In this document: in pieces, positions 9,356-38,302 of the stretch | How positions within the stretch are numbered: position 1 is the stretch's first letter | Layout: every line of letters starts with the position of its first letter | From: Candidatus Bathyarchaeota archaeon | Lineage (GTDB): Archaea; Thermoproteota; Bathyarchaeia; TCS64 | Assembly: GCA_026014815.1 (NCBI GenBank) | Contig: JAOZHP010000077.1 | Location: 6,819 to 70,818 of the forward strand | Direction: 5' to 3' | Length of the DNA stretch: 64,000 nt | Made by a program: the position numbers and the translations under genes | Notes under the pieces: generated by a model | Seen by the model: only the letters and a program-made list of their open reading frames with translations | The model's database searches: none | Told to the model about the DNA's origin: nothing

Positions 9356-9828
9356 TACTAGAGACGATTATATCTGCTCTCTACACGTATCTTCCCGCCT
9401 ACTTCGCCAACGCGAGCCCTGTGGTGCTGGGAGGCGGGCCACCACTGGATGGTGGTAGCAGATGGAGTGATGGGCGGCCACTGCTGGGGGACCATAAAAC
9501 CATAAAAGGCACCTTCTACGGCATCCTCGTCGGCATCATAGTAGGTGTCCTTCAGGGAAACATAGTCGGGGGTTCGATGCAGGCGGTGGGAGCTATTGCA
9601 GGGGATATAATCGTCAGTTTCCTCAAGCGGAGAATAGACCTTGTACCGGGTGAGAGTTTCCCAGTTGGCGACCAACTTGATTTTATTGTTTTCGCGGTTA
9701 TCTTGAGTTACCCATTCCAGAACACTTCATGGGGTCAGATCGTGACGATTCTTCTCATCACGCTTCCCATTCATTACGCTGTGAACTATATCGCGTGGTT
9801 GACAAAGCTCAAAGAGCATCCCTGGTAG
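9352..9828 (+). CDS. carS: CDP-archaeol synthase (CarS, DUF46); start is non-canonical (CTG 9352 or ATA 9355), as no ATG/GTG/TTG is available
   Basis: LILETIISALYTYLPAYFANASPVVLGGGPPLDGGSRWSDGRPLLGDHKTIKG matches the CarS N-terminal signature (LPAYxANxSPVL..GGG.P.D). GGAGG sits 7 nt upstream of the CTG. The frame is closed by TAA at 9295, and the first GTG (9421) falls inside the conserved motif. Confidence 0.7.
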   Translation: MILETIISALYTYLPAYFANASPVVLGGGPPLDGGSRWSDGRPLLGDHKTIKGTFYGILVGIIVGVLQGNIVGGSMQAVGAIAGDIIVSFLKRRIDLVPGESFPVGDQLDFIVFAVILSYPFQNTSWGQIVTILLITLPIHYAVNYIAWLTKLKEHPW

Positions 9829-17639: not shown

Positions 17640-17665
17640 AGTACCTTGATATTATATAACCCTAA
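17640..17665. promoter_or_regulatory. Palindromic TATA-like element (TTGATATTATATAAC) in the 49-bp divergent intergenic region; candidate shared promoter for two leaderless divergent transcripts
   Basis: ATATTATATAA is centred about 26-27 nt from both the minus-strand ATG (17627) and the plus-strand GTG/ATG (17677/17680). Confidence 0.45.
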
Positions 17666-17676
17666 GTGCGTGATCT

Positions 17677-24130: not shown

Positions 24131-25105
24131 TTGATGAATTTAGCTATAATTACAAGTAGCATTGTCAACGTGAGTCTTCTTGTAATTCTGTGTATAGGCT
24201 TCACATTCACTTATATGATGGAAAAGTTCCCCAACTTCGCCCACACCAGCTACGCAAGCATAGGGACTATGGTGGCGTTCTACCTTGTCCGGTTTCAGGG
24301 CTTTAACCCGTATTTTACTTGGCCCGTGGCAGCTGTTATTGGCGGTTTCACGGGTATCTTGCTGTATCTGGGGATTGTTCAACCCATCAAGAATCGGAGT
24401 ATGAGGGAGATCACATTGACTTTCACTTTCTACATTATCAGCCAGATGATTACCTCGGGGTTGGCAATGTTCAGTTACTGGCTTCTAATAGAAACCGGAA
24501 CCCCGTCTTCTGGATTCATGCTCAGGACCTTCGACTTCAGAGTCTGGGGAGTCCCCGGGATCTGCTTGATGGCTCCCATTATCATGGTATTTTTGGTGCT
24601 AACGTTGAATATCTTCCTCTACTACGCCAAATATGGTATAGCCATGAGGGCAACAGCTGAGGACGAGAAGCTATCCTCGAGTCTCGGAGTCAATGTAGAT
24701 AGAATGCATCTAGCTTCCTGGTTCATCTCCGGCGCTCTCAGCGCCCTCGCAGGCGCCATACTGCCGATGTGGATGGGGACGAGCGTTAACTACAGTGACG
24801 TGTTACTGGTCAGCGTCATGGCTGGAAGCGTACTCGGGGGACTTGATAGCATCAATGGGGCTATCATTGGGGGTTTCCTAGTGGCTTCAAGTAAAAAAAT
24901 CCTCACATACTATCTTATGGGTATTCTCGGCCCATGGATAGGTGCATACGAGGAACTGATACCAACACTCATCCTGTTCTTCATCCTGGCTATAGAGCCC
25001 AACGGATTGATGGCACTAAAAGGGAAGAATGTCTCTGTCGCGGGGATCAAGGAATCACTTCTACGTTTCCGCAAGACGATCTGGAACCTGTTGACGACTG
25101 AGTAG
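24131..25105 (+). CDS. ABC transporter permease, branched-chain amino acid type (LivH/LivM family), orphan (no adjacent ATPase or binding protein)
   Basis: 324-aa polytopic protein. AMRATAEDEKLSSSLGVNVDRMHLASWFISGALSALAG matches the LivH/LivM conserved cytoplasmic loop. Confidence 0.6.
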   Translation: MMNLAIITSSIVNVSLLVILCIGFTFTYMMEKFPNFAHTSYASIGTMVAFYLVRFQGFNPYFTWPVAAVIGGFTGILLYLGIVQPIKNRSMREITLTFTFYIISQMITSGLAMFSYWLLIETGTPSSGFMLRTFDFRVWGVPGICLMAPIIMVFLVLTLNIFLYYAKYGIAMRATAEDEKLSSSLGVNVDRMHLASWFISGALSALAGAILPMWMGTSVNYSDVLLVSVMAGSVLGGLDSINGAIIGGFLVASSKKILTYYLMGILGPWIGAYEELIPTLILFFILAIEPNGLMALKGKNVSVAGIKESLLRFRKTIWNLLTTE

Positions 25106-25166: not shown

Positions 25167-27170
25167 ATGAGGATTGATTACTATGGTACTGCCATGCCCT
25201 CCGCCGTGCAGTGCCCTCGCTGTAAACGCATCTACACCGTGGAGGAGTACAAGGAAGACAGGTTCTGCAGAGACTGCGATACATTGCTGAAGATAGTTCA
25301 GGAGAGCCAGCTTCAGCCCGATGACTGGCGGCGGCTGTTTCCCTACGAGCCTTACCCACAGCAAGTTGACTTCATTAAAGACGTGGAGGAAACAGTATCT
25401 AGAGGTAAGGTCCTCATAGCAGAGGCGTGCAACGGGTTCGGTAAGACCATCAGCAGCCTCAGCTGCCTCCTAGCCCAGGGAAAAAAGATAATCTATGCAA
25501 CTAGAACTCATGAGCAGGTCCGACAGGTCCTCCTTGAGATTGAGACCATCAACAAGAAGAACAGCGAGAAATTTAAGGCTGTGAACCTCGCGAGCCGGGT
25601 CTTCCTGTGTATCAACCCTGACTGCAGGGAGCTTCCCTCAAACGAGGCGCAGGAGATGTGTCATATCCTCCGTAAATCCGATGAGTGTCCCTTCATCCAT
25701 GAACTCGAGAAGGCGCCACGGACCATCCCAGCCGTCCTGTCAAAGGAGACACTGGTCTCGGAGGGAAGGCGTCGAAAGATATGTCCATACTTTCTCGCAC
25801 GGTTCATGTCAAAGGAGAGTGATGTCGTCGTAGCTCCTTATCCCTACGTTTTCAATCCCATGATCAGGCTCGCGACAGGCTTTGACTTGTCGGGAAAGGT
25901 GCTCATATTGGACGAGGGTCACAACATCGACCAGGTAGGTCAGGGCATCATGAGCGACACACTCACTGAGCGGGGTCTCAGCGCTGCAGCGGAGGAGGTG
26001 AAGCTCGTAGGCGAGTCAGCCAGCGTTATCAATCGTCTTGGTGAGCATCTCCTCAAGAACGACAAGGAGAAACCGCGCCTTATCTCAGCGTCAAAGCTTG
26101 AGGAGACACTTGAGAAGGTTCTGAGAATGGAGATACACCAGTTCCTTGATGAGCATGCTCCTCTCGTGGAGCAGATCCGCTTAAAGAAACTGAAATCAGG
26201 TAAACCTCCGACCTCCTATCTTAACGGTTTATTGGGTTTCTTTGAGCTTCTCCAGACCAGCCGGAAGGAGAAATACGTCGCTGTCTACAAGAGGAACTAT
26301 TACGGTTCACCAATCATCGAGTACAGGTGCTTGGACCCGAGCCTCGCGGTGCTCCCGATAGTGAAGGAAGCGGACGGCGTCTTGATAATGAGCGGCACCC
26401 TCAGTCCCATAGACATCTTCGCTGAGATTATCGGTCTTAAGGACGCGACTTTGAAGGCTTACCCAAGCATCCAGAAAAGCAAGAAGATACAGATGGTAAT
26501 CGAGACCGGCGTCACCTCCACCTACAAGGAACGTAACGAGGCGATGATAGCGAGGTACGGCGAGTTAATCTCTGACGCCTTGCAGAAGGTACCTCAGGGA
26601 GCCCTTATTTTCTTCACTCAGAGAGGGTTCATGAACACATGTCTGGACACGTGGGAGCGAAAAGGCATAATGAAGAGGAACGGCGGACGCCAGTTCCTAG
26701 GCGGTAAACAGCTCTTCAGGGAGGGCAGGGACGCCCGGAACAACCGGGACGTGGTGTCCAGGTATAAACGGATGGCGGTCAGCATCGGCGGCGCGGTTCT
26801 AACTTGCGTGTTCAGGGGTAGGAACAGCGAGGGAAGTAACTTCCCAGGAGACGAGGCACGAGGAATATTCCTCGTAGGACTACCCTATGCAAACTACGGT
26901 GATCCACTGGTGAAGGCCCAGATCAAGTACTTCGACAAGGTCAAGCGGGGGCTCGGTAACAAGTGGTACACCATGGATGCTTTCAGAGCCGCCAATCAGA
27001 GCCTCGGCAGAGGCATCCGTGGCAGGGATGACTGGTGCCATTACTGGTTACTGGATCGACGGTACAAGGAGCAGAGGAACCTGATATCCAAGTGGGCGAT
27101 GGGTGACGGACCTGAGATTAACCATACTCAACGGGTGGCTCAACAAACCTTCAAGCGTCTCGGACCTTAA
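25167..27170 (+). CDS. XPD/Rad3-family (DEAD_2) DNA helicase with an N-terminal zinc ribbon
   Basis: N-terminal CPRC...CRDC. Walker A AEACNGFGKT. The 4Fe-4S Cys cluster is spaced as CINPDC...C...C. DEGH box at ILDEGHNI. C-terminal helicase motifs. 667 aa. Confidence 0.75.
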   Translation: MRIDYYGTAMPSAVQCPRCKRIYTVEEYKEDRFCRDCDTLLKIVQESQLQPDDWRRLFPYEPYPQQVDFIKDVEETVSRGKVLIAEACNGFGKTISSLSCLLAQGKKIIYATRTHEQVRQVLLEIETINKKNSEKFKAVNLASRVFLCINPDCRELPSNEAQEMCHILRKSDECPFIHELEKAPRTIPAVLSKETLVSEGRRRKICPYFLARFMSKESDVVVAPYPYVFNPMIRLATGFDLSGKVLILDEGHNIDQVGQGIMSDTLTERGLSAAAEEVKLVGESASVINRLGEHLLKNDKEKPRLISASKLEETLEKVLRMEIHQFLDEHAPLVEQIRLKKLKSGKPPTSYLNGLLGFFELLQTSRKEKYVAVYKRNYYGSPIIEYRCLDPSLAVLPIVKEADGVLIMSGTLSPIDIFAEIIGLKDATLKAYPSIQKSKKIQMVIETGVTSTYKERNEAMIARYGELISDALQKVPQGALIFFTQRGFMNTCLDTWERKGIMKRNGGRQFLGGKQLFREGRDARNNRDVVSRYKRMAVSIGGAVLTCVFRGRNSEGSNFPGDEARGIFLVGLPYANYGDPLVKAQIKYFDKVKRGLGNKWYTMDAFRAANQSLGRGIRGRDDWCHYWLLDRRYKEQRNLISKWAMGDGPEINHTQRVAQQTFKRLGP

Positions 27171-27217
27171 CTGGATTCATAATAGAGGTTTTAAGCCCAA
27201 GGTAAAGACACCTATCT

Positions 27218-28207
27218 ATGGCTATCTTGCCTGATGAGTATGTCCTAGGGGTTGATGGTGGGGGGACTTGGACTCGAAGCATCATCATGAGACTAGACGG
27301 GACAGTGTTGGGGAAAGGCAGCGCTGGGCCCTCAAACCCATTAACCATAGGAATGGATGCGGCTCTAGAGAACATCACTCAAGCAGTGGACGAAGCTAAG
27401 AGTGAAGCAGATGTAAAATCATTCAAAGCCAGCAGGCTAGGCCTCGCTGGGGGAGCCCGATCAGTCCTTGGAGACAGGATGGTGGAACGTCTCCCCGAGA
27501 ACTATGGGGATACAGGGATCATCTCTGACACTGAATCCGCGTTGGCTGGCTCCACAGGGTGTAGGCCCGGGGTCGTGGTGATAGCTGGCACGGGTTCTAA
27601 CGTGTATGGAAAGAACGCACAAGGCGAGGAGGCGAAGGCGGGGGGATGGGGATGGCGCCTCGGTGACGAGGGAAGCGGGTACACGATAGGCAAGAACGCG
27701 ATAATAGCAGCATTAGAGTATCATGATGGAAGAGGACCATACACGACGCTCAAGGAGAGCATCCTGAGATACCTCGAAATCAAAGACATTGAGGAAATCA
27801 TCGACTGGACCTATGACTCTGGACGCGAGCCCAGACACTTTGCTTCACTGGTCCCATTAGTTAAGGAAGCTGAGAAGAGTGGAGATAAGGTCGCCGCTAA
27901 GATCATGATGGAGGTTGGCGCCCAGCTAGGAGGTATCGCTCAGGTAGTAGTAAGGAGACTAGGACTAACGGGAGCTTTTCCTGTTGCGTATGTCGGCGGT
28001 GTATTCAAGCAACCCCTTTCCTACAACGTTGCATTTGAGGAGAAGGTTCGCCAAGTAGCCCCGGACTGTCAAATAATTGAGCCGTTGTTCTCTCCCACCG
28101 TTGGCTCGGCTCTTCTAGCCCTAATAGCTATGGGGATTGATGTAGATGACGACCTCCTCAACAACGTAAAGACGAGCTTCACTGGTAGAGGTGACGTGAA
28201 TGAGTAG
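27218..28207 (+). CDS. BadF/BadG/BcrA/BcrD-type ATPase sugar kinase (MurK/N-acetylglucosamine kinase-like)
   Basis: LGVDGGGTWTRS (ASKHA phosphate-1), IAGTGSNVYG (phosphate-2), GWGWRLGDEGSGYTIG. Overlaps murQ by 8 nt. Confidence 0.6.
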   Translation: MAILPDEYVLGVDGGGTWTRSIIMRLDGTVLGKGSAGPSNPLTIGMDAALENITQAVDEAKSEADVKSFKASRLGLAGGARSVLGDRMVERLPENYGDTGIISDTESALAGSTGCRPGVVVIAGTGSNVYGKNAQGEEAKAGGWGWRLGDEGSGYTIGKNAIIAALEYHDGRGPYTTLKESILRYLEIKDIEEIIDWTYDSGREPRHFASLVPLVKEAEKSGDKVAAKIMMEVGAQLGGIAQVVVRRLGLTGAFPVAYVGGVFKQPLSYNVAFEEKVRQVAPDCQIIEPLFSPTVGSALLALIAMGIDVDDDLLNNVKTSFTGRGDVNE

Positions 28208-29099
28208 AACAACTGAGCAACTGAACCCTGCATCGAAGGGGATAGACGAGAAGCCCATCAGGGAGATACTTGAAATCATCAACACCGAGGACTCCAAGAT
28301 AGCTGAAGCCATCAGAAAGGAGCTACCACAGATCGAGAAAGCGGTGGAGGCAATAGTGAACACTGTCAAGTCTGATGGAAGAGTCTTCTTAATGGGCGCA
28401 GGGACCAGTGGCAGACTGTGCATACTTGAGGCGTCCGAGATACCCCCCACCTTCGGCATCGACCCCGAGGTCATTCAGGGGGTAATAGCGGGCGGACTTG
28501 ACGCCCTACACGGGTCAGTGGAGACAGCGGAGGACCAATCCAATAAGGCTTGGAGCGATCTCCAGAGCCGAGGCTTCAACCAGCGTGACCTCCTAATGGC
28601 TCTATCAGCCTCAGGAAGTACTCCCTATGTGCTCGGCGCAGTGAAAGCCGCCAAAGAAATCAAAGCTAAGACCATAGGGGTGGCATGCAACAAGGGCACT
28701 CCACTGGGAGAGTTAGCTGACATCTCGGTCGAGCTTATAGTGGGTCCCGAGGTGGTGGCTGGCTCAACACGGATGAAGGCTGGGACTGCCCAGAAGATGG
28801 TGCTCAACATGATGAACACCTCAGCTATGGCAAAGCTGGGTCTTATCCATGATGGCTACATGGTGGGTGTTCAGGCATCCAACATTAAGCTCATGGACAG
28901 AAGCACCCGCATAGTGTCCAATATCGCTGAGATTAGCTATGAAGAAGCTCGAAAAGCCCTTGAGATCACCAAATATGACGTACGTGTTGCTTTACTCTAT
29001 GTCATGACAGGAATGACGATAGACGAGGCGAGAACCGCACTGAGCGACTGGAGGTCAGTAAGAGATGTTCTCAGGAAGAAAGGTGGCAATGTTGAGTAA
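28200..29099 (+). CDS. murQ: N-acetylmuramic acid 6-phosphate etherase (MurQ, SIS domain)
   Basis: GRVFLMGAGTSGRLCILEASEIPPTFG and SASGSTPYVLGAVKAAKE match MurQ-conserved blocks. About 300 aa. Confidence 0.85.
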   Translation: MSRTTEQLNPASKGIDEKPIREILEIINTEDSKIAEAIRKELPQIEKAVEAIVNTVKSDGRVFLMGAGTSGRLCILEASEIPPTFGIDPEVIQGVIAGGLDALHGSVETAEDQSNKAWSDLQSRGFNQRDLLMALSASGSTPYVLGAVKAAKEIKAKTIGVACNKGTPLGELADISVELIVGPEVVAGSTRMKAGTAQKMVLNMMNTSAMAKLGLIHDGYMVGVQASNIKLMDRSTRIVSNIAEISYEEARKALEITKYDVRVALLYVMTGMTIDEARTALSDWRSVRDVLRKKGGNVE

Positions 29100-29147
29100 C
29101 GTGAGGGGATATTATTATTTCTACAAGGCAGAAAGGAGGCATCTGCC

Positions 29148-30314
29148 CTGAGAGTCACGCCCGGAATAGATGTACTTCTAAAGGACCCGGATAAGCACCT
29201 CGGGCAAGCTAACATAGGTCTCGTCACCAATCCGACTGGTGTGACCAACGGGCTTGAGTCCACCATCGACGCGTTGCACAGATGCTCCAAGGTAAATCTT
29301 AGAGCCGTGTTTGGGCCTGAGCATGGAGCGAGAGGCGACGCGCAGGACGCTCTCAAGGTGTCTGGCCACGTGGACGCGTACACAGGGCTCCCTGTTCATA
29401 GCCTGTATGGTGATCACGAGAAGCCTACCGTTGAGATGCTGGAAGGCCTCGAAGCTCTGGTTTTTGATATACAGGATTGTGGCGCCCGGTTCTATACCTA
29501 TGTTTCAACTCTCACTCATTGCATGGAGGCTTCAGCAGAGCATGGCATACGTGTTGTTGTCCTTGATAGGCCCAACCCTTTGAACGGAGACGCGACCGAA
29601 GGCAACATATTGAAACCCGGTTTCAGGTCCTTCATCGGGTTACACCCAGTCCCTATCCGTCACGGCCTAACTGTCGGTGAGCTTGCCCAGTTCATCAATC
29701 AAGGTATCCAGTGTGATCTTCACGTGGTCGAGATGGAGGGATGGAGACGCGGAATGTGGTACGACGAGACCAGTTTACCGTGGATTCAGCCCAGCCCTAA
29801 CCTGCCCTCCCTTGACACAGCGACAGTGTACCCCGGCACATGCTTCTTCGAGGGAGTGAACGTCTCCGAGGGTAGAGGAACAACGCGGCCCTTCGAGTAC
29901 ATCGGTGCTCCATGGATCGATGGCAGAAGCTGGGCAGAGACCCTCAACAACACAGGTCTCCCCGGGGTGTGTTTCCGGAGCAGCCACTTCACCCCCACCT
30001 TCTGGAAATTCAAGGATGAAAGATGCGGAGGCGTACAGGTCCACGTAGTTGACAGGAAGTGTTTCAGACCAATGGAGACGGGTCTCCACCTTTTAACGAC
30101 GTTAATTCAGCTCTACCCGGACACTTTTAGCTTCAACGAGTCATCCTACGATAAGCGGCGCCACTTTGATCTCCTAGCAGGTACAGACACTCTAAGAGCA
30201 GACCTAATGGCCGGTGTCTCAGTCGAGGAGATCATGGCCTCCTGGATGCCTGAACTGGAGGAATACCGGGAGAAACGTAAAGAGCATCTGCTCTATGGAG
30301 GCGACGATGAATGA
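29148..30314 (+). CDS. namZ: DUF1343-family exo-beta-N-acetylmuramidase (NamZ/YbbC-like); start is non-canonical (CTG 29148 with AGGAGG 8 nt upstream, or ATA), as no ATG/GTG/TTG is available
   Basis: GIDVLL...IGLVTNPTGV, FGPEHGARGDAQDA, FDIQDCGARFYTYVST, LDRPNP and GRGTTRPFEYIGAP are all DUF1343 blocks in order. The frame is closed by the murQ TAA 16 codons upstream, and the first GTG (29241) lies inside a conserved block. Confidence 0.75.
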   Translation: MRVTPGIDVLLKDPDKHLGQANIGLVTNPTGVTNGLESTIDALHRCSKVNLRAVFGPEHGARGDAQDALKVSGHVDAYTGLPVHSLYGDHEKPTVEMLEGLEALVFDIQDCGARFYTYVSTLTHCMEASAEHGIRVVVLDRPNPLNGDATEGNILKPGFRSFIGLHPVPIRHGLTVGELAQFINQGIQCDLHVVEMEGWRRGMWYDETSLPWIQPSPNLPSLDTATVYPGTCFFEGVNVSEGRGTTRPFEYIGAPWIDGRSWAETLNNTGLPGVCFRSSHFTPTFWKFKDERCGGVQVHVVDRKCFRPMETGLHLLTTLIQLYPDTFSFNESSYDKRRHFDLLAGTDTLRADLMAGVSVEEIMASWMPELEEYREKRKEHLLYGGDDE

Positions 30315-31465
30315 GTGATAAAAAAACTTTCAGGGGAACCCTGGTGACACCCTTCAAAGTCATAAACGATGGGCAACTGGAGTTAGAAGGAGTCACCATA
30401 ACCTACGCTGGGCCCAGAAGAACGACATCAGGCAAGGTAAAAGATTACGGTGACAACATCATCACACCGGGGTTCATCGATATCCATATCCACGGCGGAG
30501 CCGGGTACGACGCAATGGACCCTGAACAAGAAGCCCTAAACAAGATCTCAGAGTACCTAGCAGGTGGGGGAGTGACAGGTTTCCTCGCCACAACCCAGAC
30601 CGCCCCACTCATCCAGACCCTAAATGCACTCAGAAGGATACGTGACGCAGTAAAAGCCGGAACCACCGGCGCTAAGCTTCTTGGGGCACATATGGAAGGA
30701 CCGTTTATCAGCCCTGTGAAAAAGGGGGCACAGCGAGAGTCTTCCATACGTTCACCTACAATCAATGAAATCGCTGAGGTGCTCCAAGTCTCAGATGGGG
30801 CGCTCAAGATTGTGACTCTCGCCCCCGAGGTAGAGGGAGCCGTCGAGGTTATCAGATGGCTCGCGGATCATGCTGTCGTTGTCTCCGCTGGGCACACTGA
30901 GTCGTCATACGAGGAGGCGTGTGAGGCGATCGATGCAGGTCTATCTCATATGAGTCACTTCTTTAACGGTATGCGGGGCTTCCATCACCGTGAACCCGGT
31001 GTAGTGGGTGCAGGCCTCATCGATGACAGAGTTACGGTAGAGCTGGTTGCCGACGGGCTTCACGTCCACCCCGCCGTACTCAGGCTCGCAGCTGTAGCCA
31101 AGGGGCCAAGCATGGTCGCCCTTGTCTCTGATTCAATAAAACCCGCTGGTCTACCTGACGGTGAGTATCAGATAGATGGCAGAACTTTGATTTTAGGGGG
31201 TGGATTAGTCAAGCTTCCCTCTGGGGTGATAGCCGGTAGCTCAATTCGACTGAACGACGCCGTGAGGAACATGGTGAACGTGGGGCTCCCATTATCGGAT
31301 GCTGTTCAGATGGCCACCGACACCCCTGCGAGGATTCTTGGGCTCACACCAAGAATGGGAAGACTTGAACCGGGAAGCGACGCCGATATCGTTGTCATGG
31401 ACCAGACTTACCGGGTTCTAGAGACCTTGGTGGACGGTGAAACCGTTTACAGGCTGAGTGACTAG
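30311..31465 (+). CDS. nagA: N-acetylglucosamine-6-phosphate deacetylase (NagA)
   Basis: GFIDIHIHGGAG, GAHMEGPF, SAGHTESSYEE, SHFFNGM, ALVSDS. ATGA overlap with namZ. TAG stop. Confidence 0.85.
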   Translation: MSDKKTFRGTLVTPFKVINDGQLELEGVTITYAGPRRTTSGKVKDYGDNIITPGFIDIHIHGGAGYDAMDPEQEALNKISEYLAGGGVTGFLATTQTAPLIQTLNALRRIRDAVKAGTTGAKLLGAHMEGPFISPVKKGAQRESSIRSPTINEIAEVLQVSDGALKIVTLAPEVEGAVEVIRWLADHAVVVSAGHTESSYEEACEAIDAGLSHMSHFFNGMRGFHHREPGVVGAGLIDDRVTVELVADGLHVHPAVLRLAAVAKGPSMVALVSDSIKPAGLPDGEYQIDGRTLILGGGLVKLPSGVIAGSSIRLNDAVRNMVNVGLPLSDAVQMATDTPARILGLTPRMGRLEPGSDADIVVMDQTYRVLETLVDGETVYRLSD

Positions 31466-31468
31466 GAG

Positions 31469-32659
31469 ATGAGAGACACTTATCGTAAGGTCACGGAGCT
31501 CCGAGAAAGAGAAACCAGAAGAATAATAGGGCTTATGTCAGGGACATCGGCGGACGGAGTCACCGCTGCACTCACAAGGATCACCGGAGCAGGGGAGCAA
31601 GCAACCATCAAACTCGAAGGATACAAGACATACCCCTACCATGACGAGGTACAACAACGCCTATTTACTCTATTCAACCCTAAGACAGGAACCGTAAGAG
31701 ACGCCTGTGAGCTGAACTTCGTCATCGGGGAAGCATTCGCGGACTCCGTTGAACGCATCTTGGCGGACACAGGGATCAATGTTAGCGACGTAGACCTTAT
31801 CGGCAGTCACGGTCAAACGATATGGCATCAACCAAAAACTAACCTAGTCGCAGGGCACAGTACACGTTCCACGCTTCAGATAGGTGAACCAGCAGTCATC
31901 TCATTCAAAACAGGTCTCCCAGTTATCGCTGACTTCAGGAAAGCAGACATCGTGGCTGGGGGCGAAGGCGCACCACTAACACCCTACCTCGACTACGTTC
32001 TCCATAGAGACCCCAAGGCAAATAGGGTACTGCAGAACATCGGGGGAATCGCTAACCTGACATACCTACCCAGCGGTGGATCACTTGACGACATAGTTGC
32101 ATTCGACACTGGACCGGGGAATATGATCATCGACGCAGTCGTGAAGAGGTACACGGGAGGCAGTCACGATGTTGATGGGGCTATCGCGAGACGCGGCGAG
32201 GTCCACCCTGTTCTTTTGGACAAACTATTGTCTCATATCTATTTCGCGTCGCGTGCTCCAAAGACCACTGGCAGGGAGATGTTCGGGGAGCATTATGCTG
32301 ATGAGATCATAAAGCAGGCCAAGAAGATGAGGGTATCCATGGAAGACGTGGTTGCCACTATCACGGCGCTGACCTTTGAATCAATAGCTCAGGCATACGA
32401 GACCCATCTACCCGGAGATGTTGACGAGATATACGTCTCAGGTGGTGGAGCGAGAAACCCTGTGCTCATGGAAGGCCTCAGGGATCGACTTGAGGCTCCC
32501 GTATACGAATACTCAGCCCTAGGGTTCCCTAGTGAGGCGAAGGAGGCGGTTCTCATGGCGTTGCTGGCGAACGAGCACGTGATGGGGGTCCCATGTAACG
32601 TACCTTCGGCTACCGGAGCCCAATCGAGAGTTGTTCTAGGTTGCTTAACATGGGTCTAA
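31469..32659 (+). CDS. anmK: Anhydro-N-acetylmuramic acid kinase (AnmK)
   Basis: IGLMSGTSADGV, DLIGSHGQTIWH, ADFRKADIVAGGEGAPL, FDTGPGNMIID. 396 aa. Confidence 0.85.
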   Translation: MRDTYRKVTELRERETRRIIGLMSGTSADGVTAALTRITGAGEQATIKLEGYKTYPYHDEVQQRLFTLFNPKTGTVRDACELNFVIGEAFADSVERILADTGINVSDVDLIGSHGQTIWHQPKTNLVAGHSTRSTLQIGEPAVISFKTGLPVIADFRKADIVAGGEGAPLTPYLDYVLHRDPKANRVLQNIGGIANLTYLPSGGSLDDIVAFDTGPGNMIIDAVVKRYTGGSHDVDGAIARRGEVHPVLLDKLLSHIYFASRAPKTTGREMFGEHYADEIIKQAKKMRVSMEDVVATITALTFESIAQAYETHLPGDVDEIYVSGGGARNPVLMEGLRDRLEAPVYEYSALGFPSEAKEAVLMALLANEHVMGVPCNVPSATGAQSRVVLGCLTWV

Positions 32660-32692
32660 CCGTTAAATCCTGAATGCACACATATTCTCTAG

Positions 32693-33898
32693 GTGAATGT
32701 TTTGGATAGTGCAGCTCTCAAAGAGGCCATCAAGAGGATCGATGAGAACAGGATAATCGACCTCGCGAAGCAACTCGTCAGTATCCCCAGCGTATCTGGA
32801 GACGAGAAAGCGGTGATGCATAAAGCTCGTGAGATACTTGAGGAGGCCGGGATCACAGTAGAGTTCCATGGCTCAGAGGAACGCCCAGTGATCAACGCCG
32901 TGATAAACCCGGACGCAGACAAGCTCCTTATATTCAATGGGCATCTCGACGTAGTACCCATTGCTAGGCCAGAAGCGTGGACCAAGAAGCCCTGGGACCC
33001 TGTAGTCGAGGATGGACGTATCTATGGAAGAGGTGCAAGCGACATGAAGAGCAGCTGCGCCGTGATGATCCACATCCTAGAGATTCTAAAAGACATGGAC
33101 CTACCAATCGCGGTTGGTGTACACCTTGTCCCCGACGAGGAAAGAGGAGCCAACGCAGGCTCAAAGATTCTGGTCGAAAAGATCAAGAATGCTGAGATGA
33201 GGCGACCAGACTACGTGGTCATCGGTGAGCAGAGCAACCTCAAGGTCAGGGTCGCTGAGAGAGGTATGTTCGGTTTTCAGGTCAAGTTCTATGGAAGAGC
33301 GGCTCATACAGCCGCGTCTAGGACCACAGGGATCAACGCCATCGCTAAGGCAAGCAAAGGAGTCCTCGCTCTTGAACACCACATCGACAAGTTCCATGAA
33401 TGGATAGGGCACCCCATGCAGAGCGTCAACATCATCGAAGCAGGGCTCGTCAGCAACCAAGTACCCGCAGAGTGCACCATCACCGTGGACAGGCGCCTCA
33501 TCATAGGTGAGACCGCAGACGACGCCGTCGCAGAGGTCAAGGCGGACCTCGATAAAGCAGGTGAAGGAGACCCTGACTGGAATTGGGAGATCGTCGCCGA
33601 CAAGGACGAGAAAGGGAACTGGGTCTACACGCCAGCCAACTACACTCCACCCGACAGTCCTCTAGGCCAAGCCTTCATGAAGGCGGTCCCAGCTGCTTTG
33701 GGCATTAAACCGGAGATCTACGTAGAGTGGGCGGGCAGCACAGACGGACGCCTCTACAGACATGAAGGCATCCAGACAGTGGGCTTCGGCCCCATCGGGA
33801 AAGGAGCCCACGGACCAGACGAGTTCGTCTACGTGGACAGCCTCATCAAGGCAGCTAAGGTGTATCTTTCCCTCGCCTTGGAGCTTTCCGGGGCGTAA
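32693..33898 (+). CDS. M20-family metallopeptidase/deacylase (ArgE/DapE-like), last gene of the amino-sugar cluster
   Basis: GHLDVVP, GRGASDMKSS and the EERGANAGS metal-ligand blocks of M20. GTG start immediately after GGTGA. Confidence 0.7.
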   Translation: MNVLDSAALKEAIKRIDENRIIDLAKQLVSIPSVSGDEKAVMHKAREILEEAGITVEFHGSEERPVINAVINPDADKLLIFNGHLDVVPIARPEAWTKKPWDPVVEDGRIYGRGASDMKSSCAVMIHILEILKDMDLPIAVGVHLVPDEERGANAGSKILVEKIKNAEMRRPDYVVIGEQSNLKVRVAERGMFGFQVKFYGRAAHTAASRTTGINAIAKASKGVLALEHHIDKFHEWIGHPMQSVNIIEAGLVSNQVPAECTITVDRRLIIGETADDAVAEVKADLDKAGEGDPDWNWEIVADKDEKGNWVYTPANYTPPDSPLGQAFMKAVPAALGIKPEIYVEWAGSTDGRLYRHEGIQTVGFGPIGKGAHGPDEFVYVDSLIKAAKVYLSLALELSGA

Positions 33899-34039
33899 CC
33901 CGCCTCATATCCTTATTTCCAATGTCTCAGCTACTTTCTCAGGAACTCAATGTACTCGGTGTTAACCGAGTCAAGGGTTTTCAAGAGCTCAAAGACCTGA
34001 TAAAAATCGATTCCATGGCTGCTCATAAGCTCCTCATGG

Positions 34040-34333
34040 TCATTCACCCAACGCCTTTTCCCTTCTCTGCTTGATTCTGAGGTACTCTTCAGCTAGCTGC
34101 CTCATCTGATCGATGTTGAACTCTGGGTGTTTCGCTTTGACGTGTTTCTTGGCTTCCATGAACTTGGCGGTGAAGTTTTCAAGGCTCTCCTCTGGGTCCC
34201 TTGTGATTATTCCCTTGGCGGTTCTGCTGAAATAGGCTACTTTATGCTTGCCCTCGGTAATTCTTTTGATGATAGATGCTGTAAGGCGTGGCTTGAATGC
34301 ATAACGGTGGATCAAGTGGATACAGGTGATCAC
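34040..34333 (-). CDS. Hypothetical small basic protein
   Basis: 97-aa ORF with a charged C-terminus (QMRQLAEEYLRIKQRREKALGE). Confidence 0.3.
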   Translation of the reverse strand: MITCIHLIHRYAFKPRLTASIIKRITEGKHKVAYFSRTAKGIITRDPEESLENFTAKFMEAKKHVKAKHPEFNIDQMRQLAEEYLRIKQRREKALGE

Positions 34334-34431
34334 TCACTCTTCACAGGTGAAATAGTCTCGTCCAGAAGAGACGAGTCAAAGAAGAAACAGGTTCTTGACA
34401 TAAAGGTTTACTATGGATGAGGAAAGAGGCT

Positions 34432-36054
34432 TCACTCCTCTGGAGTGCTTTTCTCCGCGATAGCCTCCACTAGGTTCATGGCTAGCTGCCGGTTGTCCTC
34501 TACACTTATCCATGGTTCCATGAGCCACGTGATGTCCGCGATGGCCACAACGGTGGTGTTTCCTTTCTCCAGCATCGCCACTGTGGGGTACAGGCCCACT
34601 TTCTCAGAGACGCTGTTCTGGGTTCCCCAGATTGCATACGCGGCGTCGCTGTCGGTGATGCTTATGTGGCCTGCGGTGAAGAATATCAGTTTCTCAAGGT
34701 CCTCTGTGAGCCACGAGTCCTCGAACTGGATTATCTCTATGTTTCTATAGAAACCGTAGTATCTATCCACATTGTAGAGGTAACCCTTACCGAAATGGAG
34801 TCCCCAGTGGTTGGCGAGGCTATTAATGGGTCCCAACATAGCGGAGGTGCTGAGGAACTCGACGCTGGCGTCGCTCAAGAAGACAAGCATGTTACCGTTA
34901 TCCACGAACTCCTTGATGGTCTGGTACTCCTCATAGCTATAGCTCTCAGTGGGCGCCACTATGAAGAGGCATGTTGCATAGTCAAGTGCTTTCTCGATGT
35001 TTTCCCACTCTGATCCATATCCAACGAACACGTTTCTCTTGGATAATTCTTCTGTTATTGAGTCCAGTATCCATGGACTCACCTTGTTACCATGGCTCAG
35101 ATCCACCACGACTTGTCCAAGTCTCTCCATTGTATCTGTCTCGTTTTCCTCGGAATCGTACAATGTCGGTATGGGTTCCCCGTTCTCCATGTAGATGACG
35201 TTGGGCATGTAAAGGAAATAGAGGGCTGGTGGTGGGTTCGCCTCATTAAGCTCGTTGATGGATGGGTATTTTTCGCTTATGCTTACGAAGTCGTCAGCTA
35301 CCCGTGCTACAAGGCTCTCAACCTCGTAGGACTCTAGCCCCGTCAAATTCGCCGCGTAGCTTAACGCGTTCTGGCGGCTGCCTATTTCATCTACGATCCC
35401 ATGGTTCACCGCCTCGGCTCCCAGAAAGATCGAGCCTCGCTTCAGGTCATTTAATTCGATGTTCAACCGGTCACCCCTACCCTCCACTACTGCTCCAGCG
35501 AAGCTGTCGAGGGCGCTAGTGATATTGAATGGGAACAGCGCTGGGCTGAACCCTGTGATCTTATGAGGACCTGTCTCGAATGTGGACTCGCTGGGTACTA
35601 GGAACCCTGGACCCACGCCTATCACGCCAACGTTCCCCACCATGGCCGCTGGTAACGCAAAGATTTGATCAGCGGACACAGCCAAGTAGTATCCTCCTGA
35701 CAATGCGAGGTGTGCAGAGGCGACTACTGGCTTCGTTTCCTTGAGTTTAAGGATGTCTAGGTACACCTGCTCTATCAAGTAAGCTGAACCACCGGGTGAA
35801 TCGATCTCTAGCACCACCGCTTTTACGTCGTCATCGTCTATTGCTTCCTGCACGGCGGCTGAGAGTATCGATGCGTACTCGGAGTCCTCTATGACTCCAT
35901 GTATCTCGATGACTCCGATGATTCCTTTCTTAGTTGTAAGGATGATGTTGGACTCTGGTTCCCAGAAGTAAAGTGACGCCATGCTGACTATCATTATTAC
36001 CGAGATCAAAGCGAAAGCGACGGTGCCTTTGTTGCTCTTAACCTTCTCCATCAT
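34432..36054 (-). CDS. sppA: Signal peptide peptidase SppA-like (S49 family) with N-terminal membrane anchor and an extra C-terminal domain of about 250 aa
   Basis: N-terminal TM helix. VKAVVLEIDSPGGSAY and ASAHLALSGGYYLAVSADQIFALPAAMVGNVGVIG are the S49/ClpP-fold core blocks. 540 aa. Confidence 0.65.
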   Translation of the reverse strand: MMEKVKSNKGTVAFALISVIMIVSMASLYFWEPESNIILTTKKGIIGVIEIHGVIEDSEYASILSAAVQEAIDDDDVKAVVLEIDSPGGSAYLIEQVYLDILKLKETKPVVASAHLALSGGYYLAVSADQIFALPAAMVGNVGVIGVGPGFLVPSESTFETGPHKITGFSPALFPFNITSALDSFAGAVVEGRGDRLNIELNDLKRGSIFLGAEAVNHGIVDEIGSRQNALSYAANLTGLESYEVESLVARVADDFVSISEKYPSINELNEANPPPALYFLYMPNVIYMENGEPIPTLYDSEENETDTMERLGQVVVDLSHGNKVSPWILDSITEELSKRNVFVGYGSEWENIEKALDYATCLFIVAPTESYSYEEYQTIKEFVDNGNMLVFLSDASVEFLSTSAMLGPINSLANHWGLHFGKGYLYNVDRYYGFYRNIEIIQFEDSWLTEDLEKLIFFTAGHISITDSDAAYAIWGTQNSVSEKVGLYPTVAMLEKGNTTVVAIADITWLMEPWISVEDNRQLAMNLVEAIAEKSTPEE

Positions 36055-37060: not shown

Positions 37061-38302
37061 TTATTCTCTGATGAAGACCATCAGCCCAAGTATCGCAAAG
37101 CTAGCTAATGCACCGCTGTAGATGCTGCTAGCCCAAAGCCCCTGATTCTGCCAGAGGATACCCACAAGAGTGTTGGACACGAAGAAAGCTGAGCCCACCA
37201 CAAGGTAGTAGACGCCATAAGCGGTGCCCCTGAGGCTGCTGTCAACATATCCGGGTATAAGGGCGCGTTGAACCGTCTCAACAATTCCCATGTATACACC
37301 GAAAACAGCCGCGATGAAATAGGCCGATGCCACTGAACCCGGAATCAGTGCTAAGAACAGAGTCGTCACGAGGAAAACCCCGTACCCCGCTACCAGAACC
37401 TTCTCTTTCCCGATCCTATCTGAGAGTCTCCCAGCGGGAATAGCAATGATGGTATGTGTCACATTCACAACTGCATATACCACTGGTATTAACGCGTCGC
37501 CCACCCCCATCTCCCTCGCGTTCAACAAGATGAAGCTGAAGTTGAACGCCCCTAGACTGAACAAACCAACAAAGCAAATTAGTCGCAGGAAACGACCTCT
37601 GACCACATCTTGAAGACCTTCAAGGAACCTGAACTCACCGCCTTCTCCTCCTATGATCTCTTTGACGCCGAACAATATGATGAGGAGGGCTATGCTTCCG
37701 GGGAGCAGTGATAGCCAGAACACATCCCTGACTGTCCAGCCCAGAAACACCATGACTGCTGTCGCCATCATAGGTCCAATGATGGCGCCCGTCTGGTCCA
37801 GGGTCCTGTGAAGCCCGAAGGCTTCGCCCCTACGTGCCTCGGAGACCGAGTCACTGATCAAGGCGTCTCTGGGGGCGGTCCTAATGCCTTTCCCGACTCT
37901 ATCAGTGACGCGGATCACGAGTGCATGTGCCACCGTTGAGGCTGCGGCGAAGAAGGGTTTAGCGATATTTGAGATACCGTATCCAACGATGATGAAGACC
38001 TTTCTCTTCCGGAATTTGTCGCTCATTATCCCGGAGACGGCTCTCAGCATGTAGCTCAATGCCTCAGCGATGCCCTCGATGAGTCCAAGGGTGGCCACTG
38101 AACCACCTGGCAGTCCAAGTATGAACATGGGGAGTATACTGAACACCATTTCACTGGACACATCGGTGAAGAAGCTTACGAGGCCCAGCCTTACAACGTT
38201 CTTGAACTCGCCCTCATCCTTCGTCATACCACTCACTTTATCATTGGATGAGATAAGGTTTCGACCGGTTTCAGATGGTCTTAAACATTCAAATCCATAC
38301 AC
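37061..38302 (-). CDS. Major facilitator superfamily (MFS) transporter
   Basis: 413 aa with about 12 TM helices. MFS loop motif GxxSDRxGRR-like: GRLSDRIGKEKV. Confidence 0.7.
   Translation of the reverse strand: MYGFECLRPSETGRNLISSNDKVSGMTKDEGEFKNVVRLGLVSFFTDVSSEMVFSILPMFILGLPGGSVATLGLIEGIAEALSYMLRAVSGIMSDKFRKRKVFIIVGYGISNIAKPFFAAASTVAHALVIRVTDRVGKGIRTAPRDALISDSVSEARRGEAFGLHRTLDQTGAIIGPMMATAVMVFLGWTVRDVFWLSLLPGSIALLIILFGVKEIIGGEGGEFRFLEGLQDVVRGRFLRLICFVGLFSLGAFNFSFILLNAREMGVGDALIPVVYAVVNVTHTIIAIPAGRLSDRIGKEKVLVAGYGVFLVTTLFLALIPGSVASAYFIAAVFGVYMGIVETVQRALIPGYVDSSLRGTAYGVYYLVVGSAFFVSNTLVGILWQNQGLWASSIYSGALASFAILGLMVFIRE

What the first reader, a model, noticed from the sequence alone, without database searches (positions are those of the whole stretch)
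27218..33898. Complete bacterial-type murein amino-sugar catabolic operon (MurK-like kinase, MurQ, NamZ, NagA, AnmK, M20 peptidase) in an apparently archaeal genome
Six tightly packed or overlapping genes encode the pathway that converts MurNAc, anhydroMurNAc and GlcNAc from peptidoglycan into GlcNAc-6P/GlcN-6P: exo-MurNAcase NamZ (DUF1343), a BadF-type MurNAc/GlcNAc kinase, anhydroMurNAc kinase AnmK, MurNAc-6P etherase MurQ and NagA. Archaea do not make murein (pseudomurein lacks MurNAc), and the flanking genes (carS, radB-like, pyrI, XPD, leaderless TATA promoters) are archaeal. The locus therefore most likely reflects horizontal acquisition allowing the organism to feed on bacterial cell-wall debris. 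The nearby D-aminoacylase, amidase, S49 and M24/M20 peptidases, and the orphan amino-acid ABC permease fit a necromass-scavenging lifestyle.
Basis: partly seen in the sequence, partly recalled or inferred. Interest (0 to 1): 0.8.

Follow-up and report, generated by a model that had tools for sequence, protein, structure and literature searches.

The report
Archaeal cassette for eating bacterial cell-wall sugars
A Bathyarchaeia (archaeal) genome carries a tightly packed five-gene cassette, of a kind otherwise typical of bacteria, that should turn the bacterial cell-wall sugars MurNAc, anhydro-MurNAc and GlcNAc into glucosamine-6-phosphate. The cassette is old, shared by many Bathyarchaeia and has been lost cleanly in at least one relative.

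Summary
Co-directional genes for a BadF-type sugar kinase, MurQ, NamZ, NagA, AnmK and an M20 deacylase lie at 27218-33898, overlapping or nearly touching.

The contig is archaeal. It carries CDP-archaeol synthase, a RadB-like recombinase and an XPD helicase, and two of its proteins are 100% identical to NCBI entries named Bathyarchaeota.

It is not a chimera. The same block, between the same XPD and M20/S49 flanks, occurs in independent Bathyarchaeia contigs of 52-494 kb. Codon usage matches the rest of the window.

- The unit is five genes (BadF kinase to AnmK). A close relative (L086) has XPD followed directly by M20, so M20 is a resident flank with its own TATA-like element.
- The transfer was ancient, not recent. 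All five gene trees give one Bathyarchaeia clade (100% bootstrap for AnmK), and four share the same internal branching. The donor is unresolved. Culexarchaeia carry a separately acquired version.

"Complete" overstates it. No transporter, NagZ, muropeptide amidase, lytic enzyme or GlcN-6P deaminase was found in the window.

NamZ lacks a signal peptide, unlike every characterised NamZ, and its start codon is CTG. Feeding on peptidoglycan-derived sugars is the best-supported function, but it is inferred. I found no paper describing this pathway in archaea.

The parts
27189..27194 (+). TATA-like element TTTTAA in the 47-nt XPD-BadF spacer, 24-29 nt upstream of the BadF ATG. Probable cassette promoter, giving a leaderless or near-leaderless transcript.
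   Evidence: Sequence read. GTTTTAAGCC recurs upstream of BadF in L084 and CTTTTAAAC in L087. Function is inferred, not tested.
27218..28207 (+). BadF/ASKHA-family sugar kinase, a MurK/NagK-like candidate for phosphorylating MurNAc and/or GlcNAc at position 6.
   Evidence: PF01869, 1e-38. The best solved relative is 8zo3, a MurNAc/GlcNAc kinase (2.2e-39), closely followed by the S. tokodaii hexokinase 2e2n (1.9e-36). The NCBIfam NagK model scores 131 bits against a cutoff of 370. The gene sits next to MurQ in Bathyarchaeia, Culexarchaeia and several bacteria.
28200..29099 (+). MurQ, the MurNAc-6-phosphate etherase (MurNAc-6P to GlcNAc-6P plus D-lactate).
   Evidence: TIGR00274, 307 bits against 302. 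3e-69 to the solved MurQ 4lzj. Both glutamates assigned as catalytic from memory of the E. coli work (in the ASE and AED motifs) are conserved.
29133..29139 (+). Shine-Dalgarno-like AAGGAGG, 8 nt upstream of the NamZ CTG codon.
   Evidence: Sequence read.
29148..30314 (+). NamZ (GH171), an exo-beta-N-acetylmuramidase with no signal peptide. The probable start codon is a non-canonical CTG.
   Evidence: NamZ_N plus NamZ_C. 1.5e-91 to 4k05 (BF0379), with the PEHG motif conserved. Orthologues start with TTG at the homologous codon. Maximum 19-residue hydropathy is 0.73, and the protein begins directly with the conserved domain.
30311..31465 (+). NagA, the GlcNAc-6-phosphate deacetylase.
   Evidence: TIGR00221, 331 bits against 226. 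7e-77 to B. subtilis NagA 2vhl. The HxH, Glu, His, His and Asp positions are conserved in the alignment.
31469..32659 (+). AnmK-family 1,6-anhydro-sugar kinase (anhMurNAc to MurNAc-6P). Last gene of the cassette.
   Evidence: PF03702, 5e-102. NF007148, 478 bits against 387. The FDTGPGN motif is present. The best solved relative is levoglucosan kinase 4zxz (1.2e-78), ahead of AnmK 3cqy (1.6e-69).
32693..33898 (+). M20 ArgE/DapE-family deacylase. A resident flanking gene, not part of the mobile cassette. It has its own TATA-like TTAAAT at 32664-32669.
   Evidence: TIGR01910, 223 bits against 218. Best solved relatives are DapE (5e-26). It directly follows XPD in the cassette-free L086. It is 73-83% identical across many Bathyarchaeia, more conserved than the cassette genes.
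25167..27170 (+). XPD/Rad3 helicase, the conserved upstream boundary of the insertion site.
   Evidence: TIGR00604, 367 bits against 247. It lies upstream of the cassette in L081, L084 and L087, and upstream of M20 in L086.
34432..36054 (-). S49/SppA-like peptidase, the conserved downstream backbone gene, convergent with M20.
   Evidence: Conserved in L081, L084, L086 and L087.
9358..9828 (+). CDP-archaeol synthase (CarS), an archaeal membrane-lipid marker on the same contig.
   Evidence: PF01864, 1.8e-38, 132.7 bits.

Best explanation
This is a five-gene cassette (BadF-type kinase, MurQ, NamZ, NagA, AnmK; 27218-32659). It has its own TATA-like promoter and translationally coupled genes. It encodes a cytoplasmic route from peptidoglycan-derived amino sugars to GlcN-6-phosphate in a Bathyarchaeia archaeon.

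Proposed steps:
1. An unidentified transporter imports free MurNAc, 1,6-anhydro-MurNAc, GlcNAc and/or MurNAc-GlcNAc. These would be released by other organisms' lytic enzymes or by bacterial wall turnover.
2. Intracellular NamZ splits MurNAc-beta-1,4-GlcNAc.
3. The BadF-family kinase phosphorylates MurNAc and/or GlcNAc at O6.
4. AnmK opens and phosphorylates anhMurNAc to MurNAc-6P.
5. MurQ removes D-lactate, giving GlcNAc-6P.
6. NagA removes acetate, giving GlcN-6P. This then feeds glycolysis (through a deaminase encoded elsewhere) or the cell's own glycan synthesis.

Shown here: the enzyme family identities, conserved catalytic motifs, operon packing, the archaeal host, conservation and co-inheritance across Bathyarchaeia, and the empty site in a relative.

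Inferred: the substrates, the uptake step, the physiological role, and the direction of the original transfer (bacteria to an ancestor of this Bathyarchaeia clade).
For: - Family scores are above curated cutoffs for MurQ, NagA and AnmK, and both NamZ domains are present.
- Catalytic motifs are conserved against solved structures.
- The best solved relative of the kinase is a MurNAc/GlcNAc kinase.
- Genes overlap, and SD-like motifs precede the internal genes.
- The same order is found in L001-L004, L081-83, L084/85 and L087, at 47-71% amino-acid identity. The flanks diverge to a similar degree: XPD 56-71%, M20 61-81%.
- More than 120 NamZ clusters at 61-70% identity are all labelled Bathyarchaeota or Bathyarchaeia whenever a source gives an organism name.
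- Bathyarchaeia form one clade in all five gene trees (AnmK 100% bootstrap). NamZ, MurQ, BadF and NagA share the same internal branching; supports for these four trees were not printed.
- Culexarchaeia carry BadF-MurQ-NamZ, a GH3 NagZ-like gene, AnmK and an MFS transporter together. This independently ties these genes to a peptidoglycan-sugar function in archaea.
- Archaea lack murein (established knowledge), so the substrate must be exogenous.
- Published hints agree. Bathyarchaeota encode D-Ala-specific peptidases (PMC9534799). They express hydrolases proposed to recycle bacterial biomass (PMC5264521).
Against: - Among the window ORFs scanned, none is recognisable as a MurNAc or muropeptide transporter, NagZ, AmpD/AmiE-type amidase, lysozyme or lytic transglycosylase, GlcN-6P deaminase or D-lactate dehydrogenase. 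The MFS transporter at 37061-38302 does not match AmpG models.
- The kinase is not assignable to MurK rather than NagK or a broad hexokinase.
- AnmK scores higher against levoglucosan kinase structures than against AnmK structures.
- NamZ here has a CTG start codon, so its expression may be weak.
- There is no expression or biochemical evidence.
Confidence: 0.75

Rival explanations
1. Assembly or binning chimera: a bacterial fragment has been joined to archaeal DNA.
For: The enzyme families are overwhelmingly bacterial. One cluster of the neighbouring M20 (P0128) carries an NCBI label of a bacterial family, Krumholzibacteriaceae.
Against: - The same junctions (XPD|BadF and AnmK|M20|S49) recur in independent assemblies from JGI, ENA and NCBI, on contigs of 52-494 kb.
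- Flanks and cassette diverge in parallel.
- Codon usage, GC and GC3 of the cassette fall within the window's range.
- CarS, a RadB-like recombinase and XPD lie on the same contig.
- The contig behind the 'Krumholzibacteriaceae' label is colinear with this window, so that label is the likelier error.
Confidence: 0.02
2. The enzymes act on non-murein substrates. Candidates are levoglucosan or other 1,6-anhydro sugars (AnmK/LGK family), other 3-O-ether-substituted amino sugars (MurQ), and N-glycan or exopolysaccharide hexosamines (NamZ, kinase, NagA).
For: The best solved relative of the AnmK homologue is levoglucosan kinase. The kinase is about as close to a broad-specificity archaeal hexokinase as to MurK. 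GH171 members already differ in specificity (bioRxiv 10.1101/2021.12.02.470905). NamZ is intracellular here, unlike the characterised members.
Against: - AnmK passes the AnmK equivalog cutoff.
- AnmK is always co-located with MurQ and NagA in the Bathyarchaeia loci. MurNAc-6P, the AnmK product, is the MurQ substrate. A levoglucosan kinase product (Glc-6P) needs neither MurQ nor NagA.
- MurQ passes its equivalog cutoff with both catalytic glutamates conserved.
- Culexarchaeia add a GH3 NagZ-like gene to the same gene set.
Confidence: 0.12
3. The cassette recycles an endogenous MurNAc-containing envelope polymer made by these Bathyarchaeia themselves.
For: In bacteria these genes serve recycling of the cell's own wall. 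Bathyarchaeia envelopes are essentially uncharacterised (my own knowledge).
Against: - No murein-synthesis gene was found in the 64 kb window.
- A close relative has lost the whole cassette while keeping the flanks. That fits an accessory nutritional trait, not an envelope function.
- No archaeon is known to contain MurNAc (established knowledge).
Confidence: 0.03
4. The M20 deacylase is a functional sixth member of the pathway, for example trimming stem-peptide remnants or MurNAc-L-Ala.
For: It lies 33 nt downstream of AnmK on the same strand. The adjacency is conserved in L004, L081, L084 and L087. Its nearest solved relatives are DapE enzymes, which act on a diaminopimelate derivative.
Against: - In cassette-free L086 the orthologue (77% identity) sits directly after XPD, with a TTAAAT element at the same distance from its start.
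- In L001 and L003, AnmK is followed by an M28 peptidase on the other strand instead.
- No M20 was found within 10 kb of AnmK in the 73 bacterial loci.
- It is more conserved than the cassette genes.
Confidence: 0.15

Closest known systems
Kinase-dependent MurNAc catabolic route of Clostridium acetobutylicum and Tannerella forsythia (MurK kinase, then MurQ)
   Same: A non-PTS route: a BadF/ASKHA-family kinase sits next to MurQ, and MurNAc is phosphorylated in the cytoplasm. The kinase's best solved relative is a MurNAc/GlcNAc kinase. BadF-MurQ adjacency is also seen in Clostridia, Bacilli and Chloroflexi loci.
   Different: The host is an archaeon without murein. AnmK, NagA and NamZ are fused into the same operon. 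No MurT-type transporter gene lies alongside. The kinase's specificity is not established.
E. coli-type peptidoglycan recycling (AmpG, NagZ, AmpD, AnmK, MurQ, NagA)
   Same: The AnmK, MurQ and NagA chemistry from anhMurNAc to GlcN-6P.
   Different: No AmpG, NagZ or AmpD was found in the window. There is no cell wall of the organism's own to recycle. The genes form one operon rather than being scattered.
Bacillus subtilis murQ-murR-murP-amiE-nagZ-namZ operon (PMC8054146)
   Same: NamZ (GH171) is clustered with MurQ, so an exo-muramidase feeds the etherase.
   Different: B. subtilis NamZ and the T. forsythia NamZs carry signal peptides and are described as secreted or periplasmic (PMC8054146; bioRxiv 10.1101/2021.12.02.470905). 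The archaeal NamZ has no signal peptide. There is no PTS (MurP), no AmiE, no NagZ and no MurR.
Culexarchaeia loci L006 and L007
   Same: BadF-MurQ-NamZ in the same order, with AnmK nearby, in another archaeal class.
   Different: Only 29-47% identical, which is no closer than bacterial homologues, and they fall in separate clades. They include a GH3 NagZ-like gene and an MFS transporter but lack an adjacent NagA.
Lateral transfer of NamZ, AnmK and MurQ to anaerobic ciliates (PMC13198582)
   Same: The same bacterial amino-sugar catabolic gene set was acquired by a non-bacterial, sediment-dwelling anaerobe and interpreted as use of bacterial cell-wall residues.
   Different: The recipient is a eukaryote and the genes are not in an operon. 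Here the recipient is an archaeal class, and the genes are kept as a unit.

Membership tests
MurQ (MurNAc-6P etherase, SIS family) | Score above the curated equivalog cutoff. | tested here: met
   TIGR00274, 307.4 bits against 302. PRK05441, 359.6 against 168.
MurQ (MurNAc-6P etherase, SIS family) | Two catalytic glutamates (E. coli Glu83 and Glu114, numbering from memory). | tested here: met
   The alignment to 4lzj shows 'ASE(I/C)PPTFG' and 'AED' conserved. Assigning these to Glu83 and Glu114 is my inference.
AnmK (anhydro-MurNAc kinase, PF03702) | Family and equivalog score, and the catalytic Asp motif FDTGPGN. | tested here: met
   PF03702, 5.3e-102. NF007148, 477.7 bits against 387. The motif is present.
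AnmK (anhydro-MurNAc kinase, PF03702) | Specificity for anhMurNAc rather than levoglucosan. | tested here: inconclusive
   Levoglucosan kinase 4zxz scores 268 bits, against 238 for AnmK 3cqy. Gene context with MurQ and NagA favours AnmK.
NamZ / CAZy GH171 exo-beta-N-acetylmuramidase | Both NamZ domains, with the conserved N-terminal-domain glutamate region. | tested here: met
   PF07075, 271 bits, and PF20732, 202 bits. 1.5e-91 to 4k05, with 'GPEHG' conserved. Equating this motif with B. subtilis Glu92 (PMC8054146) is my inference.
NamZ / CAZy GH171 exo-beta-N-acetylmuramidase | Secreted or periplasmic location (signal peptide), as in all characterised members. | tested here: not met
   The protein begins directly with the conserved domain. 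Orthologues are 387-391 aa with no N-terminal extension. Maximum hydropathy is 0.73. The characterised enzymes carry signal peptides.
MurK (MurNAc/GlcNAc kinase, BadF/ASKHA) | Closest characterised relative is MurK, and the gene is adjacent to MurQ. | tested here: inconclusive
   8zo3 at 2.2e-39 against hexokinase 2e2n at 1.9e-36. The NagK equivalog scores 131 bits against 370. Adjacency to MurQ is met.
NagA (GlcNAc-6P deacetylase) | Equivalog score and metal or catalytic residues. | tested here: met
   TIGR00221, 330.9 bits against 225.65. DIHIHGG, EGPF, GHT, SH..N and a D aligned to 2vhl.
Complete bacterial peptidoglycan-recycling system | Uptake (AmpG, MurP or MurT), NagZ and a MurNAc-L-Ala amidase (AmpD or AmiE) encoded alongside. 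| tested here: not met
   None was found among the ORFs of the 64 kb window that were scanned. They may be encoded elsewhere in the genome.
Horizontally acquired accessory cassette | Presence/absence polymorphism at a conserved chromosomal site, and a clade nested in the donor domain's diversity. | tested here: met
   Empty site in L086: XPD, a 33-nt spacer, then M20. The Bathyarchaeia AnmK clade has 100% bootstrap among bacterial sequences, but its sister group is unresolved, with support of 15% or less.
Recent horizontal transfer | Atypical composition or codon usage, and near-identical bacterial homologues. | tested here: not met
   GC3 is 0.58 in the cassette against 0.61 elsewhere. Codon-usage distance is 0.17 against 0.19 for genes of similar length. 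The best bacterial AnmK identities are 48% or less.

The most novel reading that the evidence does not exclude
A large, widespread subclade of Bathyarchaeia has carried a dedicated cytoplasmic pathway for MurNAc and anhydro-MurNAc since an ancient cross-domain transfer. These abundant sediment archaea would then be consumers of bacterial cell-wall turnover products and necromass, using an intracellular GH171 muramidase unlike any characterised one. This would name a specific archaeal sink for muramic acid in anoxic sediments, and it is directly testable by enzyme assays and isotope probing.
Probability: 0.5. Interest if true: 0.65.

Novelty: new member of a known kind. Interest (0 to 1): 0.55.

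Why it matters
Bathyarchaeia are among the most abundant archaea in anoxic sediments, and what they eat is still debated. Muramic acid is a classic marker of bacterial necromass, so knowing who consumes it matters for carbon and nitrogen budgets in sediments.

A conserved, operon-organised MurNAc/anhMurNAc pathway gives a concrete, assayable hypothesis for archaeal use of bacterial cell-wall sugars. Earlier hints from D-Ala peptidases and unspecified 'cell-wall hydrolases' are much less specific.

The locus is also a clean case of an ancient bacteria-to-archaea operon transfer with a defined insertion site and an empty-site relative. The pathway chemistry itself is well known, and the proteins are already auto-annotated in public MAGs. 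The novelty therefore lies in the host and the ecology, not in the mechanism.

Tried and rejected
- **Exact look-ups:** the window's AnmK and NCBI's NamZ (P0001) are not on record in the contig index.
- **RNA genes:** no tRNA or Rfam hit in the window, so no RNA-based taxonomy was possible.
- **Donor lineage:** neighbour-joining trees with bootstraps leave the bacterial sister of the Bathyarchaeia clade unresolved, at 15% support or less. A first attempt with Biopython distances timed out.
- **Transporter:** the MFS at 37061-38302 and the LivH-like permease at 24131-25105 give no AmpG or MurT-type match. Both are backbone genes.
- **GlcN-6P deaminase:** the only other SIS protein (6825-7433) is a 6-phospho-3-hexuloisomerase.
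- **Literature:** seven full-text searches found no paper linking Bathyarchaeia or other archaea to MurQ, AnmK, NamZ or GH171. The library lacks many subscription papers (for example Lazar et al. 2016) and supplementary tables, so prior mention cannot be excluded.
- **The extra 320-aa gene (u320):** no Pfam, NCBIfam or PDB sequence match. A few homologues carry weak GHL6/GHL10 hits. Outside Bathyarchaeia and one Sumerlaeota locus it is not linked to MurNAc genes. I did not model its structure because it is not in this window.
- **Promoter/terminator scanner:** not used, because it models sigma-70 promoters.

Full report
**1. Observation**

Pfam and NCBIfam assign them as follows:

| Coordinates | Assignment | Score |
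|---|---|---|
| 27218-28207 | BadF/BcrAD ATPase-family kinase (PF01869) | 1e-38 |
| 28200-29099 | MurQ (TIGR00274) | 307 bits, cutoff 302 |
| 29241-30314 | NamZ_N plus NamZ_C | 5.8e-81 and 1.1e-59 |
| 30311-31465 | NagA (TIGR00221) | 331 bits, cutoff 226 |
| 31469-32659 | AnmK (NF007148) | 478 bits, cutoff 387 |
| 32693-33898 | M20 ArgE/DapE deacylase (TIGR01910) | 223 bits, cutoff 218 |

The junctions are operon-like. BadF and MurQ overlap by 8 nt, NamZ and NagA share an ATGA overlap, and NagA and AnmK are 3 nt apart. GAGGTG, GGAGG and TAGGAG motifs lie upstream of the internal starts.

The NamZ ORF must be extended. The conserved N-terminus (LRVTPGIDVLL...GLVTNPTG) is encoded from 29148, directly after an AAGGAGG motif. 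No ATG, GTG or TTG lies between the in-frame MurQ stop and 29241. Orthologues in four relatives use TTG at the homologous codon, while the window has CTG. NCBI's own model (P0001) starts at an ATA 22 codons further in.

**2. Are the enzymes plausibly active?**

Alignments to solved structures show the expected motifs:
- MurQ keeps the two glutamates in the ASE and AED motifs. I take these to be the E. coli catalytic pair, from memory.
- NagA keeps HxH, Glu, His, His and Asp.
- AnmK keeps FDTGPGN.
- NamZ matches B. fragilis BF0379 at 1.5e-91 and keeps GPEHG.

Two specificities stay open:
- The kinase's best solved relative is a MurNAc/GlcNAc kinase (8zo3, 2.2e-39). A broad-specificity Sulfolobus hexokinase is nearly as close (2e2n, 1.9e-36).
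- The AnmK homologue scores higher against levoglucosan kinase (268 bits) than against solved AnmKs (238 and 187 bits).

None of the six proteins has a hydrophobic N-terminus or a likely membrane segment. NamZ is therefore predicted to be intracellular. Every characterised NamZ carries a signal peptide.

**3. Host identity**

- The window encodes CDP-archaeol synthase (PF01864, 1.8e-38).
- It encodes a RadB-like recombinase and an XPD/Rad3 helicase.
- The NamZ and M20 proteins are 100% identical to NCBI entries from an 81,992-nt contig of a 'Candidatus Bathyarchaeota archaeon' MAG.
- In a scan of one genome per GTDB species, the closest AnmK relatives are four archaeal MAGs at 61-66% identity. 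Three are labelled Bathyarchaeia or Bathyarchaeota and one 'uncultured archaeon'. A Nitrososphaera MAG follows at 51%, two Culexarchaeia at 43-46%, and only then bacteria at 48% or less.

**4. Chimera test and evolutionary history**

The order BadF-MurQ-NamZ-NagA-AnmK recurs in L001-L004.

Long independent contigs show the whole neighbourhood:
- L081-83 (JGI, 52-107 kb), L084/85 (JGI, 494 and 264 kb) and L087 (ENA, 159 kb) all have XPD, then the cassette, then M20, then S49 on the opposite strand.
- Further shared neighbours include a Tubulin_2-like gene, a LivH-like permease, an MFS transporter, an amidase, a histidine kinase and a GNAT-OB fusion.
- Amino-acid identities to the window are similar for flanks (XPD 56-71%, M20 61-81%) and for cassette genes (47-71%).

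GC3 and codon usage of the cassette are indistinguishable from the rest of the window. GC shows no sharp break. A chimera is therefore excluded, and so is a recent transfer.

The key locus is L086 (NCBI GCA_963679995.1, a 327-kb contig). It has the same backbone, but XPD is followed after 33 nt by the M20 orthologue and then S49, with none of the five genes. Its flanks are as close to the window as those of cassette-bearing L084 (XPD 71% against 69%; M20 77% against 81%). The more distant L081 and L087 carry the cassette. The simplest reading is that the cassette was present in the common ancestor and was excised in the L086 lineage.

This also defines the unit as five genes. Several observations show that M20 is a resident neighbour:
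- It keeps a TTAAAT element 24-29 nt upstream of its GTG, as the L086 orthologue does.
- It is more conserved than the cassette genes (73-83% identity).
- In L001 and L003, an M28 peptidase on the other strand follows AnmK instead.
- It is absent from the surroundings of the 73 bacterial AnmK genes.

Neighbour-joining trees give one Bathyarchaeia clade for AnmK (100% bootstrap). Its sister group is unresolved, at 15% support or less. The NamZ, MurQ, BadF and NagA trees share the same internal topology. Culexarchaeia fall elsewhere and are no more similar to the window than bacteria are. Archaea therefore acquired such genes at least twice.

**5. What is missing**

The following were not recognisable among the window ORFs scanned, namely all of 150 aa or more plus ten shorter ones:
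- a MurNAc or muropeptide transporter;
- NagZ;
- an AmpD- or AmiE-type amidase;
- a lysozyme;
- a GlcN-6P deaminase;
- a D-lactate dehydrogenase.

The other SIS protein is a hexuloisomerase, and the MFS transporter does not match AmpG. The route as encoded here ends at GlcN-6P and depends on soluble, peptide-free sugars made available by other organisms, or on genes elsewhere in the genome.

Related cassettes add parts. L003, L081 and L087 have a 320-335-aa gene (u320) between MurQ and NamZ. It has no Pfam, NCBIfam or PDB sequence match, and some homologues carry weak GHL6/GHL10 hits. Culexarchaeia add a GH3 NagZ-like gene and an MFS transporter.

**6. Mechanism proposed**

The mechanism is set out under Best explanation. 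Uptake is by an unknown carrier. Intracellular NamZ cleaves MurNAc-GlcNAc. The kinase makes the 6-phosphates. AnmK converts anhMurNAc to MurNAc-6P, MurQ gives GlcNAc-6P plus D-lactate, and NagA gives GlcN-6P plus acetate.

The enzyme identities and the genetic organisation are shown here. The substrates, the uptake step and the physiological role are inferred from the named bacterial pathways (PMC8054146 and my own knowledge of the E. coli, C. acetobutylicum and T. forsythia routes).

**7. Comparison with the literature**

Published work already suggests that some Bathyarchaeia use bacterial wall material:
- D-Ala-specific peptidases (PMC9534799);
- carbohydrate esterases related to peptidoglycan degradation (PMC13288992).

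The same gene set has been reported as laterally transferred into anaerobic ciliates (PMC13198582).

In seven full-text searches I found no paper that mentions MurQ, AnmK, NamZ or GH171 in Bathyarchaeia or any other archaeon. The GH171 founding paper lists only bacterial phyla. Public annotation pipelines do already name these archaeal proteins.

**8. Verdict**

This is a real, well-supported, ancient bacterial-type MurNAc/anhMurNAc catabolic cassette in Bathyarchaeia. It is a new member of a known kind, in an unexpected host. Interest is moderate (0.55). It gives a directly testable hypothesis about archaeal consumption of bacterial cell-wall sugars, but the chemistry is known and the function is unproven.

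Noticed in passing
window 29100-29241: NamZ has no canonical start codon. The codon homologous to the TTG start of four orthologues is CTG (29148), preceded by AAGGAGG. NCBI's model instead starts at ATA 29214 and drops 22 conserved residues. This could be a weak non-canonical start, incipient decay or a base-call error.
   Followed up: partly
window 33899-34431: A 533-nt, low-GC (0.46) spacer lies between M20 and S49. It has no counterpart in L084 or L086, where the two genes abut, and no similar sequence elsewhere in the window or the fetched loci. It holds small minus-strand ORFs (for example 34040-34333, 97 aa) that look like a frameshifted remnant of a small gene.
   Followed up: partly
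L081 9042-10004; L003 1553-2560; L087 5427-6425; L025 8908-9846: An uncharacterised 320-335-aa protein family (motif FWDEPHY) has no Pfam, NCBIfam or PDB sequence hit, though a few homologues carry weak GHL6/GHL10 hits. It sits between MurQ and NamZ in some Bathyarchaeia cassettes and just upstream of AnmK in a Sumerlaeota bacterium. It is absent from this window. It also occurs in Thermofilum, Thermoplasmata, Helarchaeota and bacteria, once next to a GH20 hexosaminidase. It is a candidate missing glycosidase of the pathway.
   Followed up: partly
L084 (JGI Ga0307379_10000005, 494 kb) / protein cluster P0128: An M20 protein 81% identical to the window's carries an NCBI label 'Candidatus Krumholzibacteriaceae bacterium'. 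The contig carrying it is colinear with this Bathyarchaeia window over about 20 kb. This is probably a mis-binned or mislabelled MAG contig.
   Followed up: partly
L006 and L007 (Culexarchaeia): A second, independently acquired archaeal MurNAc gene set. The order is MFS transporter, thioredoxin (opposite strand), BadF kinase, MurQ, NamZ, GH3 NagZ-like (opposite strand), AlaX, a winged-helix protein, Hsp20, AnmK, then creatininase (opposite strand).
   Followed up: partly
L005 (Nitrososphaera sp. MAG7) 9977-11173: A lone AnmK homologue (51% identity, the closest non-Bathyarchaeia relative) lies next to a GNAT, a DegT-type aminotransferase and a myo-inositol-1-phosphate synthase domain protein (PF01658). 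There is no MurQ, NamZ or NagA within 10 kb.
   Followed up: no
window 18798-21467 (-): An 889-aa protein with a Tubulin_2 / Tubulin-FtsZ GTPase domain, flanked by ORFs with no Pfam match (14366-18801, 21468-22442). It is conserved at 82% in L086 and is part of the syntenic backbone.
   Followed up: no
window 56945-58171 (+) and 51323-52132 (+): Two apparent gene fusions. One joins the aspartate carbamoyltransferase regulatory subunit PyrI to an orotate phosphoribosyltransferase-like domain. The other joins a GNAT acetyltransferase to an Ssb-like OB fold. The GNAT-OB fusion is conserved in L081, L084 and L087. L086 has a 441-aa PyrI-domain orthologue.
   Followed up: no
L001 5016-10678; L003 6130-7458: In two Bathyarchaeia loci the cassette is followed by an M28 peptidase with a PA domain. 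In L001 this is followed by a gamma-glutamyltranspeptidase, a GNAT and another M20. These peptidases could in principle act on gamma-D-Glu-containing stem peptides. This is speculative.
   Followed up: no
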